The notes: generated by a model not told the origin, from the sequence alone. DNA of 64,000 nt from a virus (IMGVR_UViG_3300042516_001671:31468-95467); one strand, 5' to 3'; positions 49,374-51,609 are shown, counted from the stretch's first letter. Program-made: numbers and translations.

Positions 49374-50099
49374 ATGACAGCACTTGTCCCCGTAGACCAG
49401 ATCGAGCGCATGGCGCTCGCGGTCGCCAAATCCGGCCTGTTCGGCGTCAAGACGCCCGACCAAGCGATGGCCCTCATGCTGGTGGCGCAGGCGGAAGGCA
49501 TGCACCCCGCGATTGCCGCCCGCGATTACCACGTTATCAATGGCCGCCCAACGCTGCGCGCCGACGCCATGCTGGCCCGTTTCCAGCAGGCCGGCGGCAA
49601 AGTGGAGTGGGGCGAGTACACCGACCGCAAGGTCGTCGGCACGTTCACCCACCCGCAGGGCGGCAGTGTCCGCATTGAGTGGACGACGGACATGGCCGTC
49701 AGCGCCGGCCTGACGCGCAACCCGACGTGGAAGTCCTACCCCCGGCAGATGCTGCGGGCGCGGTGCATCAGCGAAGGCATCCGCACCATCTACCCCGGCG
49801 TGGCCATCGGCACCTACACGCCAGAGGAGGCCGAGGACATGGCCCCGCGCCCAGCCCGCGACATGGGCGCTGTCGAAGAGGTGGCCCCGCCGCCGCCGCC
49901 GGCAGTGGACGTGGAAGCTCTGGTGCGCGACATTGACGGCGCCGCCACGCTGGAGTTTCTGGAACTGCTGCGCCCGCAGATGCGCCAGGTGCCGAAAGGC
50001 CCCGACCGCGACCGCGTGGTGGCCGCAGTGCAGCGCCGTGCAGAGGAGATCCGCGCTGAGCAGGCGCCCGCGCCCGAGGCGGAAGGGGGTGCGTTGTGA
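49374..50099 (+). CDS. Single-strand annealing recombinase (RecT-like)
   Basis: HVINGRP...WKSYPRQML.AR...YTPEE; near the exonuclease. Confidence 0.78.
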   Translation: MTALVPVDQIERMALAVAKSGLFGVKTPDQAMALMLVAQAEGMHPAIAARDYHVINGRPTLRADAMLARFQQAGGKVEWGEYTDRKVVGTFTHPQGGSVRIEWTTDMAVSAGLTRNPTWKSYPRQMLRARCISEGIRTIYPGVAIGTYTPEEAEDMAPRPARDMGAVEEVAPPPPPAVDVEALVRDIDGAATLEFLELLRPQMRQVPKGPDRDRVVAAVQRRAEEIRAEQAPAPEAEGGAL

Positions 50100-50311
50100 G
50101 TGCCGCCAGCCAACCCCCCGATCAGCACCTGATCACCCCCGCCCAATTGGGCATCCGCTGGGGCCTGAGCCTGCACACGCTCAGTCAGTGGCGGGCCAAT
50201 AACAGCGGGCCGGCTTACCTGCGCCTCGGTGACGGCGAGCGGCCGCGCATCAGGTATCGGCTGGTGGACGTGCAGGAATACGAGCGCCGGCAACTGGAGA
50301 ACCGGCAGTAA
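50096..50311 (+). CDS. Excisionase/AlpA-like HTH protein
   Basis: ITPAQLGIRWGLSLHTLSQWR...GPAY...IRY. Confidence 0.8.
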   Translation: MSAASQPPDQHLITPAQLGIRWGLSLHTLSQWRANNSGPAYLRLGDGERPRIRYRLVDVQEYERRQLENRQ

Positions 50312-50316
50312 TACGT

Positions 50317-50590
50317 AATACACGGCACGGCGAGGCAGGGCACGGCACGGCCAGGCGAGGCAGGGCATGGCACGGCTCGGCAACGCACGGCATGGCAGGG
50401 CGAGGTACATGGCACGGCGTGGCGTGGCCAGGCATGGCGCAGCCAGGCACGGCGAGGCAAGGTACGCGGCTTGGCAAGGCCCGGCGTGGCGTGGCAAGGC
50501 ACGGCAAGGCAAGGTACATGGCTTGGCAGGGCAAGGCTCGGCAGGGCAAGGCTTGGCGCGGCAAGGCAGGGCAATTTCTGCCCGAATTTG
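50317..50590 (+). repeat. Segmented GGC-NN pentamer array; candidate guide-RNA array
   Basis: 46 pentamers in blocks of 16/10/9/11 (50324-50403, 50411-50460, 50468-50512, 50520-50574), separated by GGTACAT, GGTACGC, GGTACAT; small GGGCA/TGCCC hairpin at the 3' end. Confidence 0.9.
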
Positions 50591-50618
50591 AGTGTTTTTC
50601 AACCAATGGAGTACAGTG

Positions 50619-51197
50619 ATGAAACTGATCGACATCGAAATTCGCGGCATTCAACCGCTTCTCATGCACCGTTTTGCGGAGGACGCGGAGACGGCCAGCA
50701 GCAGCAAGGCGCGCGGCATCGTGCAGGACAGGGGCACGCCCCGCGAACAGGCCGAGAAGGTTGCCTACCGGCATCCTGACGGCACGTTCTACATCTCGGC
50801 GTTCGCCATTCCCAACGCTATCGGCGCGGCCGGCGCGAGCTACAAGATGCCCGGTTCGCGCAAAAGCATGCGGTTCATTGTGCCCAGCGCAATCCGCATC
50901 TTTGAGCCCACCATCACGGTGATGAACGGCGCAGGCCCTGCCAAGGATTTCGAGGTGGACTCGCGCCCGGTGACGATCCCCGCCACCAAAGGCCGCGTCA
51001 TGCGCCACCGCCCGCGCTTTGACTGCTGGGGCCTGCAGTTCAGCATCGGTGTGGACGACACGTTGATGAAAGTCAGCGACGCGCAGATGCTGCTGGAGCA
51101 GGCCGGCCTGAGCATTGGCATCGGGGATTTTCGTCCTGAGAAGCGCGGCCCGTTTGGCACGTTCCGCGTGACCCGTTTTGAGGAGCTCGCAGAATGA
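50619..51197 (+). CDS. Solitary RAMP/Cas7-like protein (192 aa)
   Basis: GGAG RBS at 50608; N-terminal IEIRGIQPLLMH strand, FYISAFAIPNAI, C-terminal Gly-rich loop AGLSIGIGDFRPEKRGPFGTFRV. Confidence 0.75.
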   Translation: MKLIDIEIRGIQPLLMHRFAEDAETASSSKARGIVQDRGTPREQAEKVAYRHPDGTFYISAFAIPNAIGAAGASYKMPGSRKSMRFIVPSAIRIFEPTITVMNGAGPAKDFEVDSRPVTIPATKGRVMRHRPRFDCWGLQFSIGVDDTLMKVSDAQMLLEQAGLSIGIGDFRPEKRGPFGTFRVTRFEELAE

Positions 51198-51391
51198 GCG
51201 CCGCCCGCGAATTCCTCGCGGGCCTGTTCCGCCCCGCGTCGCCCGAGGTTCTGGCAGCGCGTGAGCTGGACGAGGCCCGCCGGCAGTTGCTGGCCGCAGA
51301 GTCCGCTGCGGAATACGCGGACGCGATGTGCGCTTACCACCGTTCGCGGATTGAGCGGTTGCAGCGGTATTTGAAAGGAGAGCAGGAATGA
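51194..51391 (+). CDS. Phage hypothetical coiled-coil protein
   Basis: ATGA coupled to the RAMP-like gene. Confidence 0.7.
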   Translation: MSAAREFLAGLFRPASPEVLAARELDEARRQLLAAESAAEYADAMCAYHRSRIERLQRYLKGEQE

Positions 51392-51609
51392 AAGACACCG
51401 GAGGACCGGCGTTTCCCGTGAAGACGGCGATGCTCGATTGCACGCAGACCGGCATGACCCTGCGCGACTACTTTGCGGCGAAGGTGATGGAAGGGATTTG
51501 GACAAACAGTGAGATTCTTGCGACTTTGAAACGCGGGCAAGAGTCGAAAGAAATTGCTATGTTAGCCTATGAGCAGGCCGACGCCATGCTGAAAGCGAGG
51601 CAACCATGA
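51388..51609 (+). CDS. Conserved small phage protein (GGPAFP...GMTLRDYFAA...ADAML)
   Basis: Widespread phage motif set. Confidence 0.8.
   Translation: MKDTGGPAFPVKTAMLDCTQTGMTLRDYFAAKVMEGIWTNSEILATLKRGQESKEIAMLAYEQADAMLKARQP

What the first reader, a model, noticed from the sequence alone, without database searches (positions are those of the whole stretch)
50317..51197. Candidate non-CRISPR RNA-guided system: GGC-NN pentamer array plus a solitary RAMP/Cas7-like gene
Seen: a ~260-bp intergenic array of invariant GGC triplets alternating with variable dinucleotides (46 units, only two degenerate: CGC at 50384, AGC at 50441). It ends 44 bp before a 192-aa gene with its own RBS, inside the recombination/early operon. 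Established: RAMP proteins (Cas7/Csm3/Cmr) have an N-terminal strand ending in a 'PL.' motif, a '(Y/F)IP..s.k..i' helix and a C-terminal Gly-rich loop, and they polymerise along RNA with a fixed nucleotide period. This protein shows counterparts of all three (IRGIQPLLMH; FYISAFAIPNAI; GIGDFRPEKRGPFGTFRV). No cas1/2/3/5/6/10 or repeat-spacer array is present. Inference: one subunit binds each 5-nt unit, gripping GGC and displaying NN, so the information lies in the dinucleotide string and specifies a non-contiguous target. With no nuclease partner it would probably act by binding or repression, e.g. against competing phages. I recall a recent report of phage systems of this design ('VIPR', GGY/NN repeats); that recollection is unverified.
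Basis: partly seen in the sequence, partly recalled or inferred. Interest (0 to 1): 0.96.

Follow-up and report, generated by a model that had tools for sequence, protein, structure and literature searches.

The report
Phage VIPR guide array and protein
This uncultured 95-kb phage carries a genuine example of the recently described VIPR system (a lone Cas7-like protein plus guide RNAs made of GGC-NN five-letter repeats), and two of its four guides spell, codon by codon, conserved motifs in the replication genes of a family of resident prophages, so it most likely silences rival phages.

Summary
Window 50322-50574 is a same-strand array of 46 GGC-NN pentamers. Three GGTAC borders split it into four guide blocks. 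It ends 44 nt before a 192-aa gene (50619-51197).

In 85 of 87 related loci from several phyla, a GGY-NN array lies beside the gene on the same strand. Sister phages with near-identical flanks carry different guide sets.

Under the published 1-nt-skip rule:
- Guide 2 matches 112 viral or proviral contigs exactly, in frame, in an AAA_24 (Sak4-like) ATPase gene. Six control patterns gave 0-3 hits each.
- Guide 3 independently hits the helicase gene about 3.3 kb away in the same elements, in 53 loci and under skip 1 only.
- There is no self-target.
- Guides 1 and 4 have no target yet.

This is a VIPR system, a class published as preprints in 2026, so it is a new member of a known kind. This scan has already noted VIPR-type loci on other DNA many times (325 notes, at least 258 genomes). 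Transcription, processing and repression are inferred, not shown.

The parts
50317..50321 (+). Degenerate copy (AATAC) of the GGTAC border that precedes the first guide in sister phages
   Evidence: Sister loci read GTGGTACRT at the aligned place just before their first unit.
50322..50403 (+). Guide block 1: a leading NN plus 16 GGC-NN units (one degenerate, CGC at 50384). No target found.
   Evidence: Target scans were negative or at chance level.
50404..50408 (+). GGTAC border 1 (causes a 2-nt register shift)
   Evidence: Of 30 two-nt inter-block gaps in the family, 27 follow GGTAC.
50409..50460 (+). Guide block 2: a leading AT plus 10 units (one degenerate, AGC at 50441). It matches 21 of 22 informative bases in the AAA_24 ATPase gene of proviruses.
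   Evidence: There are 112 exact pattern hits. They lie in frame on the peptide T-V-V-Q-I-A-H-T-D, and the skipped bases vary. The leading AT matches the preceding ATG in 56 of 56 distinct contexts. The match appears under skip 1 only, and 0 of 200 shuffled guides reach it.
50461..50465 (+). GGTAC border 2
   Evidence: Target complementarity of guide 2 stops here.
50466..50512 (+). Guide block 3: a leading GC plus 9 units. Its first 8 dinucleotides match the SF2 helicase gene of the same proviruses. The last two AA units do not pair.
   Evidence: 53 loci match at 15/16 or better and 12 match exactly, under skip 1 only. The shuffled null has mean 0.03 and maximum 6.
50513..50517 (+). GGTAC border 3
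50518..50574 (+). Guide block 4: a leading AT plus 11 units. No target found.
   Evidence: The two hits found are at chance level. There are no sites in the target loci.
50569..50618 (+). 3' tail after the last guide. A small hairpin (5-bp stem 50569-50573 with 50579-50583) is followed by a T-rich stretch. Much of the tail sequence is shared with the 91%-identity sister phages.
   Evidence: The fold energy is not better than that of shuffles (z -0.21), so the structure is weakly supported.
50608..50611 (+). GGAG ribosome-binding site of vipr, 7 nt before the ATG
   Evidence: Read directly
50619..51197 (+). vipr gene (192 aa plus stop): a Cas7-like RAMP and homolog of SUSP1 Vipr
   Evidence: It matches PHROG phrog_4652 (function unknown) at E 4e-21.
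50096..50311 (+). 71-aa HTH_17/excisionase-like gene directly upstream. It is a possible accessory (vap-like) DNA-binding protein, with weak support.
   Evidence: The Pfam HTH_17 hit (E 0.0045) is below the cut-off, and phrog_66 is at E 6e-4. About 12 of the 54 nearest upstream ORFs scanned have an HTH hit, so this is not a universal partner.

Best explanation
This is a VIPR (Viral Interference Programmable Repeat) system in a complete 95-kb uncultured phage.

The proposed mechanism has three steps.
1. The array at 50322-50574 is transcribed with the early recombination operon. It is cut or delimited at the GGUAC borders into four vrRNAs of 10 to 17 informative dinucleotides.
2. Vipr protomers (gene 50619-51197) polymerise one per pentamer. 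They hold each GGC through the conserved H17, thumb R131 and G-loop D170/F171/R172, and they present the NN pairs.
3. The filament binds double-stranded DNA that reads NN-x-NN-x, which is the 1-nt-skip rule, and blocks transcription.

Guide 2 is aimed at the AAA_24 (Sak4-like) ATPase gene. Guide 3 is aimed at the SF2 helicase gene of the same early replication operon. That operon belongs to a widespread family of proviruses that carry a large serine recombinase. The likely role is to silence replication of a resident or rival temperate phage during infection.

Shown here: protein homology and fold, array anatomy, gene-array linkage, guide turnover between sister phages, two statistically supported natural targets, and no self-target.

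Inferred from the published SUSP1 work: transcription, processing, filament assembly, DNA binding and repression.
For: Protein
- The single sequence hits the solved chain 36pp_D, 'SUSP1 Vipr protein', at E 5.8e-07.
- The 40-sequence family profile hits the same chain at E 9.3e-12 over residues 1-183.
- hhalign against the Felixounavirus Vipr homolog gives 98.2% probability and E 3.8e-14.
- The RNA-contact residues reported in 10.64898/2026.04.26.720927 align as H17 to H17, R138 to R131, and D177/W178/R179 to D170/F171/R172. R131, D170, F171 and R172 are invariant and H17 is nearly invariant in alignment A1.

Array
- It holds 46 GGC-NN units in four blocks and far exceeds chance.
- 85 of 87 related loci have same-strand arrays next to the gene, and almost none are on the other strand.
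- Over 3399 units, G1, G2 and Y3 are conserved while N4 and N5 carry 1.93 and 1.98 bits.
- Sister phages whose flanks are 95-100% identical carry different sets of blocks.
- As a positive control, the same detector finds arrays on both sides of the vipr operon in Felixounavirus Alf5, as published for SUSP1.

Targets
- The guide 2 pattern gives 112 exact hits in IMG/VR. Six other patterns of similar information content gave 0, 2, 1, 3, 2 and 2 hits.
- All 112 hits are in frame in an AAA_24 gene (PF13479, E 1e-53).
- The skipped bases vary at wobble positions. There are 91 distinct gene sequences with a median of 80% nt identity.
- The held-out leading AT matches in 56 of 56 contexts, and nothing matches beyond either GGTAC.
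- In whole proviruses the score is 21/22 under skip 1, against 14-17 under skip 0, 2 or 3. None of 200 shuffled guides reaches it.
- Guide 3 hits 53 of the loci that had been selected only by guide 2, under skip 1 only. The shuffled null has mean 0.03.
- The target element carries a large serine recombinase, AAA_24, DUF669, a helicase and Prim-Pol. Five long target records are classed as provirus.
- Target GC is 0.586 against 0.595 for the phage.
- A phage with the identical vipr and array, and a target contig, come from the same sample, 3300046001.
- The phage has no self-target and no AAA_24 gene.
Against: - No expression data exist.
- No sigma-70-like promoter or terminator flanks the array.
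- Guides 1 and 4 have no identified target.
- The 112 guide 2 hits are not independent, because they come from one gene subfamily.
- The host of the phage and of the target proviruses is unknown, so coexistence in one cell is inferred only from GC content and one shared sample.
- No conserved accessory (vap) gene was found.
- Only the last guide has anything like a 3' tail, and its fold is no better than that of shuffles. The published type II vrRNAs have a structured tail.
Confidence: 0.85

Rival explanations
1. It is a genuine VIPR locus, but the two 'targets' are not what it acts on. The matches to the AAA_24 and helicase genes could be leftovers of how the guides arose, for example copied from such genes. 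Alternatively the real role could be regulation of host or own genes, or decoy or anti-VIPR functions.
For: Only two of the four guides have matches. Guide 3 pairs over 8 of its 10 dinucleotides. The L014 sister variant of guide 2 has no target. The host is unknown. A later check on another VIPR finding in this scan found that a 'guides aimed at conserved motifs' claim partly fell.
Against: Two different guides from one array converge on one operon of one element family. They do so only under skip 1, with the skipped bases at wobble positions, and far above the shuffled nulls. The ends of complementarity coincide with the GGTAC borders. The pattern mirrors the experimentally supported prophage targeting of the P. 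fulva clade (10.64898/2026.04.26.720920).
Confidence: 0.1
2. The array is a single long vrRNA of about 46 units, or a few long ones. The GGTAC sites are tolerated irregularities rather than borders between four separate guides.
For: No processing data exist. No promoter or terminator lies between blocks. Some relatives have in-register runs of 40-60 units.
Against: Complementarity of guide 2 ends exactly at GGTAC on both sides. Blocks are gained, lost and reshuffled as units between sister phages, and each ends in GGTAC. The 2-nt shift breaks the 5-nt register that a one-protomer-per-pentamer filament needs. Block sizes of 10 to 17 are close to the published 9-16 repeats per vrRNA.
Confidence: 0.1
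3. The repeat acts at the DNA level and is unrelated to the neighbouring gene. It could be iterons, binding sites for a DNA-binding protein, a recombination hot spot, or a hypervariable microsatellite.
For: It sits in a recombination/replication module next to an HTH gene. No RNA evidence is available.
Against: Across several phyla the array sits next to the vipr gene on the gene's own strand, either upstream or downstream, in 85 of 87 loci. The protein is homologous to one solved in complex with exactly this kind of RNA (10.64898/2026.04.26.720927). A 5-nt period cannot encode protein. The NN strings spell codon-phased motifs of foreign genes.
Confidence: 0.02

Closest known systems
Type II VIPR of Escherichia phage SUSP1 (Vipr + vap1 + vrRNAs; bioRxiv 10.64898/2026.04.26.720920 and .720927; PDB 36pp)
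   Same: The Vipr protein is homologous over its full length, and the GGY-contact residues are conserved. Both have GGY-NN pentamer guides of about 9-16 units on the gene's strand. Both are phage-encoded and lack cas genes. Natural targets fit the 1-nt-skip rule, with skipped bases at wobble positions.
   Different: Protein identity is only about 26%. Here there is one upstream array and nothing downstream. The guides are separated by GGTAC plus a 2-nt shift, not by a roughly 40-nt pseudoknotted tail. Y3 is C throughout, whereas T predominates in the Felixounavirus control. No vap1-like gene follows vipr. The targets are proviruses, not a phage satellite.
'Staggered' tail-less vrRNA arrays mentioned in the discovery paper (fig. 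S18 legend)
   Same: [quoted passage not shown]
   Different: Only the legend is held. It speaks of a 1-nt overlap and does not mention GGTAC. I could not establish whether this clade is the one shown there.
Pseudomonas fulva prophage VIPR clade (same paper)
   Same: The guides converge on resident prophages and their early or regulatory genes, and there is no self-targeting.
   Different: The host group is different and unknown. The targets here are replication genes (AAA_24 and a helicase), not lysis-lysogeny regulators. This carrier is a 95-kb viral record classed as linear, not as a provirus.
CRISPR class 1 backbone subunits (Csm3/Cmr4/Cas7, type VII Cas7, Cas7-11)
   Different: The genome has no repeat-spacer array and no cas1, and no other cas family turned up in the genes examined. 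The period is 5 nt with 2 informative bases, not 6 nt with 5. The Pfam RAMPs model does not detect the protein.

Membership tests
VIPR system | A Vipr protein: a minimal single-RRM RAMP with thumb and G-loop, homologous to characterised Vipr | tested here: met
VIPR system | Tandem GGY-NN (YNNGG) pentamer repeats beside vipr, on its strand | tested here: met
   There are 46 units at 50324-50574, ending 44 nt upstream of the gene. 85 of 87 homologous loci show the same linkage.
VIPR system | GGY conserved and NN hypervariable between related systems | tested here: met
   Entropy is 0.24, 0.09 and 1.02 bits for G1, G2 and Y3 against 1.93 and 1.98 bits for N4 and N5. The GGY values are partly forced by the detector. 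The NN values are not. Sister phages with 95-100% identical flanks have different guide sets.
VIPR system | vrRNAs of about 9-16 repeats, each capped by a conserved 3' tail | tested here: inconclusive
   Block sizes of 10-17 informative dinucleotides fit. Between blocks, however, there is only GGTAC plus 2 nt. Only the last block has a short hairpin tail, and its fold is no better than that of shuffles. More distant relatives in the same protein family do have 20-55-nt conserved tails.
VIPR system | Targets follow the 1-nt-skip (NNx) rule and lie in competing mobile elements | tested here: met
   Guide 2 matches 21/22 in the AAA_24 gene of 112 viral or proviral contigs. Guide 3 matches at 15/16 or better in the helicase gene of 53 of the same loci. 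Both match under skip 1 only and far above shuffled nulls. No targets were found for guides 1 and 4.
VIPR system | No self-targeting of the carrier genome | tested here: met
   The best self matches under skip 1 are 62-72% of informative bases, below the papers' 80% threshold.
VIPR system | An accessory vap gene in an operon with vipr | tested here: inconclusive
   At BLASTP level no neighbour is conserved in more than 11 of 62 distinct loci. By Pfam the nearest upstream genes vary: DUF3310, HTH_17, HTH_59, ERF, RecT and AAA_24. Here a weak HTH_17-like gene lies upstream. The paper says loci 'typically' have a vap.
VIPR system | Viral or proviral location without cas genes or a CRISPR array | tested here: met
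   The carrier is a complete 95,467-bp IMG/VR virus record. It has no Cas1, no Pfam RAMPs hit and no CRISPR-like repeats.
VIPR system | vrRNAs are expressed, co-purify with Vipr, and the RNP represses transcription of targets | not testable with these tools
These features need bench work.
CRISPR-Cas (class 1) | A repeat-spacer array plus adaptation (cas1/cas2) and multi-subunit effector genes | tested here: not met
   There is no CRISPR-like array and no Cas1. The Vipr is the only RAMP in the genome, and Pfam RAMPs gives no hit. The protein shares the Cas7 fold, but the locus is not a CRISPR-Cas system.

The most novel reading that the evidence does not exclude
In this clade the structured vrRNA tail may have been replaced by a minimal border, GGUAC plus a 2-nt register shift. 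This border would both end one Vipr filament and start the next guide. Guide cassettes delimited by it are swapped, duplicated and fused between sister phages. That would be a tail-less array architecture with recombination-driven repertoire turnover. Guide choice appears to favour motifs built from amino acids whose first two codon letters are fixed, which synonymous change cannot escape. It could differ from anything yet characterised for VIPR, unless it is the paper's 'staggered' array.
Probability: 0.3. Interest if true: 0.55.

Novelty: new member of a known kind. Interest (0 to 1): 0.45.

Why it matters
- It confirms that the VIPR class extends to a very large and so far unnamed protein family. 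More than 1500 clusters at 90% identity were found, almost all annotated as hypothetical. The family is carried by environmental phages of several bacterial phyla.
- It gives a worked natural example outside enterobacteria and Pseudomonas. Two guides from one array are aimed at wobble-proof motifs in two replication genes of one provirus family.
- This supports the idea that VIPR serves phage-against-phage competition.
- It offers a very compact array, 7 nt between guides, that could be useful for multiplexed programmable repression if the border signal is enough for processing.
- It does not open a new class of system.

Tried and rejected
Target searches that gave only chance hits
- Guide 1, units 1-9, gave 0 hits in viral contigs. 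It gave 8 hits in metagenomes, and all failed the held-out units at 4/14 or fewer.
- Guide 1, units 6-14, gave 3 hits in 30-35% GC contigs, with 2/14 held-out bases matched.
- Guide 4 gave 2 hits in AT-rich sequence context, with 1/4 and 2/4 held-out bases matched.
- A guide shared by sister phages gave 1 hit, in a 41% GC jumbo-phage contig.
- The full 9-unit pattern of guide 3 gave 2 AT-rich hits. Its real target appeared only after I dropped the terminal AA AA units and added the leading GC.
- The L014 variant of guide 2 gave 2 unrelated hits.
- Guide 1 has no site with 3 or fewer mismatches in five whole proviruses.

Other scans
- All 266 family guides were scanned against the local 0.6 Mb. 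No skip rule stood out.
- 251 guides were scanned against the target loci. One guide, from L074, reached 17-18/20 at a site 966 nt upstream of the AAA_24 site in 20 contigs of one narrow lineage. That many guides over 1.7 Mb can produce this by chance, so I did not use it.
- The neighbour search found no conserved vap.
- The tail fold is no better than that of shuffles.
- The promoter and terminator scan found nothing near the array.

Host
- Cultured relatives of the target AAA_24 gene are Synechococcus and Rhizobium phages. Those of the phage exonuclease are Xanthomonas, Paracoccus and Sphingopyxis phages. These disagree, so the host stays unknown.

Tools not available
- The supplements of the discovery paper are not held, so the VIPR type (I-VII) of this clade could not be assigned.

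Full report
**1. What is there**

Between the stop codon of a small HTH gene (50311) and the ATG at 50619 lies a run of GGC-NN pentamers on the plus strand. The first GGC is at 50324 and the last unit ends at 50574.

The register is not continuous. At 50404, 50461 and 50513 a GGTAC is followed by two extra bases, and this divides the array into blocks of 16, 10, 9 and 11 units.

The array is not a chance feature. The interval 50312-50618 holds 49 in-register units, against a mean of 0.07 and a maximum of 6 in 2000 shuffles. The whole 95-kb genome contains no other array on either strand.

The gene at 50619-51197 encodes 192 residues, and a GGAG lies 7 nt before its ATG. Upstream on the same strand are three genes: a RecE/YqaJ-like exonuclease (phrog_149, E 4e-47), a RecT-like annealing protein (phrog_561, E 1e-31) and the HTH gene. 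The window is part of a virus record of 95,467 bases that CheckV rates as complete.

**2. The protein**

Pfam finds nothing. PHROGs places it in phrog_4652, a family of unknown function. Against the sequences of solved structures, the single protein hits chain 36pp_D, deposited as 'SUSP1 Vipr protein', at E 5.8e-07.

A search of 5.8 billion proteins returned more than 1500 clusters, nearly all unnamed. A 40-sequence alignment of these (A1) gave three results:
- The profile hits the same chain at E 9.3e-12 over residues 1-183.
- hhalign against the Felixounavirus Alf5 homolog gives 98.2% probability.
- The AlphaFold model has mean pLDDT 83.

The cryo-EM paper (10.64898/2026.04.26.720927) names the residues that hold the GGY bases: H17, R138, D177, W178 and R179. 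In the alignments they correspond to H17, R131, D170, F171 and R172. R131, D170, F171 and R172 are invariant and H17 is nearly invariant in the family. The helix-1 residues of the pyrimidine pocket differ (F62/A63 here against E71/M72). K33 of SUSP1 falls in an alignment gap and cannot be mapped.

**3. Linkage of gene and array**

I gathered 6 loci from bacterial MAGs (Opitutaceae, Phycisphaerae, Hyphomicrobium and others) and 80 loci from IMG/VR, at 42-100% protein identity. Together with the window's own locus that makes 87. Of these, 85 have GGY-NN blocks beside the gene on its own strand, upstream, downstream or both, and the opposite strand is almost empty. The two exceptions are a locus cut at the gene's end and one with a divergent upstream array (L059).

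Over 3399 units from non-identical blocks, positions 4 and 5 carry 1.93 and 1.98 bits.

Eleven sister loci (91% protein identity to the window) share flanks at 95-100% identity yet carry several different arrays. These differ in the number and content of blocks, and single blocks recur in different orders.

The same detector finds arrays on both sides of the two-gene vipr operon in Felixounavirus Alf5. This matches the published SUSP1 layout and serves as a positive control.

**4. Literature**

Three preprints are held.
- The discovery paper (10.64898/2026.04.26.720920) describes several things: Vipr, an ancestral RAMP; vrRNAs of 9-16 YNNGG repeats with a 3' tail; the 1-nt-skip rule; transcriptional repression; targets in satellites and prophages; and seven types, including 'staggered' tail-less arrays.
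- The structural paper shows one protomer per repeat and the gapped R-loop.
- The third paper (10.64898/2026.10.15.759431) shows that codon-phased targeting blocks escape by synonymous mutation.

**5. Architecture of this clade**

In the window's clade (at least 85% identity), every block ends in A-rich units followed by GGTAC and two bases, and the leader ends in GTGGTACRT. In the window that leader copy has decayed to AATAC. Of 30 two-base gaps in the family, 27 follow GGTAC.

The last two dinucleotides of a block come from the set AA, AT, AG, GA in 91% of cases, against 42% for inner units.

More distant relatives in the same protein family separate their guides by conserved tails of 20-55 nt. 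The GGTAC border is therefore a reduced form. After the last block comes a small hairpin and a T-rich stretch, much of it shared with the 91% group, but its fold energy is ordinary. No promoter-like or terminator-like site flanks the array, so co-transcription with the operon is the simplest assumption.

**6. Targets**

There is no self-target under skip 1. The best scores are 62-72% of informative bases.

Exact NNx patterns of nine units (about 18 specified bases) were scanned in IMG/VR. Six of them gave 0-3 hits: two from guide 1, one from guide 3, one from guide 4, one from a guide shared by sister phages, and one from the L014 variant of guide 2. All these hits lay in AT-rich or unrelated contexts, and wherever held-out units existed they failed them. 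A metagenome scan for guide 1 gave 8 hits, and all failed the held-out units.

Guide 2 behaved differently:
- It gave 112 hits.
- All lie in frame on the peptide T-V-V-Q-I-A-H-T-D of a roughly 260-aa AAA_24 protein (PF13479, E 1e-53).
- The skipped bases vary as synonymous third positions.
- The genes comprise 91 distinct sequences with a median of 80% nt identity. The site is in their most conserved block.
- Every amino acid in the motif has fixed first and second codon letters.

A held-out prediction was then tested. If the two bases after GGTAC are the first dinucleotide of the next guide, the codon before the site should begin with AT. It is ATG in 56 of 56 distinct contexts, and nothing matches beyond GGTAC on either side. 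Guide 2 therefore has 11 dinucleotides and matches 21 of 22 bases.

In three whole proviruses this score appears only under skip 1, against 14-17 under skip 0, 2 or 3. None of 200 shuffled guides reaches it.

Guide 3 provides an independent test:
- Its first eight dinucleotides, including its leading GC, match a homologous site in all three proviruses.
- Among the 112 loci, which had been selected only by guide 2, it hits 53 at 15/16 or better and 12 exactly. This happens under skip 1 only. The shuffled null has mean 0.03 and maximum 6.
- The site is 3.1-3.8 kb downstream of the AAA_24 site, on the other strand. It lies in the Helicase_C part of an SF2 helicase gene (peptide V-L-T-T-G-F-N), again with the skipped bases at wobble positions. 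The 15/16 class is explained by Leu CTN versus TTR codons.
- Its two terminal AA units do not pair.

The target element carries five features: a large serine recombinase, a sigma-70-region-2-like gene, AAA_24, DUF669, the helicase and a Prim-Pol primase. IMG/VR classes the five long target records as proviruses. Their GC (0.56-0.59) is close to the phage's 0.595. One target contig and one contig with the identical vipr and array come from the same sample, 3300046001.

The phage itself has no AAA_24 homolog. The target loci carry no vipr and no array. No target was found for guides 1 and 4.

**7. Interpretation**

The locus meets the defining features of VIPR that can be tested on sequence:
- the protein and the array;
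- hypervariable NN strings;
- a viral location without cas genes;
- no self-targeting;
- natural targets that obey the 1-nt-skip rule.

Two features are inconclusive: a structured 3' tail on each vrRNA, and a vap gene. Expression, RNP formation and repression cannot be tested here.

The most likely function is RNA-guided silencing of the replication operon of a resident or competing temperate phage. The rivals are coincidental or historical matches, one long vrRNA, and a DNA-level repeat. Each is much less likely, for the reasons given under rival explanations.

**8. Novelty**

The class was described in 2026. This scan has already noted VIPR-type loci 325 times in at least 258 genomes, and another reader flagged the four-block structure of this same stretch. 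This is a new member of a known kind.

What it adds is a clean natural target pair in an environmental phage and a very compact GGTAC-delimited array. That array may or may not be the 'staggered' type of the discovery paper.

Noticed in passing
L014:2793-2999 (sister phage, 98% Vipr identity): A 68-aa ORF is inserted between the array and vipr. By eye it looks like an AlpA/HTH_17-type small DNA-binding protein. In this locus the last block ends in GGTAC rather than the usual tail.
   Followed up: partly
L059:2798-2912: This is the only locus where the pentamer array (23 units) lies on the strand opposite to vipr, upstream of the gene and oriented away from it.
   Followed up: no
L036, L037, L074, L064: Some relatives have in-register runs of 40-60 units with no visible border or tail. 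Either several guides are fused, or a border signal exists that my detector does not see.
   Followed up: no
L052, L064, L069, L086, L033, L004: Different subclades of the same protein family each have their own conserved inter-guide tail of 20-55 nt. Some are clear hairpins (L086, L033). This would be good material for covariation analysis of vrRNA tails.
   Followed up: no
window 50324-50574 versus L099 (Felixounavirus Alf5): Outside the GGTAC borders, Y3 is C in every unit of the window array. In the Felixounavirus arrays it is mostly T. The helix-1 residues of the pyrimidine pocket also differ (F62/A63 versus E71/M72). This could reflect genome GC content or a real pocket preference.
   Followed up: no
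L106, L111, L128 and 17 other target loci, 966 nt upstream of the guide 2 site: A guide from the distant VIPR locus L074 matches 17-18 of 20 informative bases at one homologous site in 20 closely related target contigs, under skip 1 only. This is within chance for the number of guides tried, but worth rechecking with a full search.
   Followed up: partly
window 51388-51609: A 73-aa gene two genes downstream of vipr matches phrog_2201 (unknown function, E 6e-22), with a weak hit to a transcription-regulator PHROG. Whether it travels with vipr was not examined.
   Followed up: no
window 50411-50460 versus L014 block 3; window 50468-50574 versus L014 block 4: The sister phage L014 carries a one-unit-shorter version of guide 2. 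It also carries a block that looks like a fusion of the start of guide 3 with the end of guide 4. This suggests unequal recombination between the repeats. The shortened guide 2 has lost its target match.
   Followed up: partly
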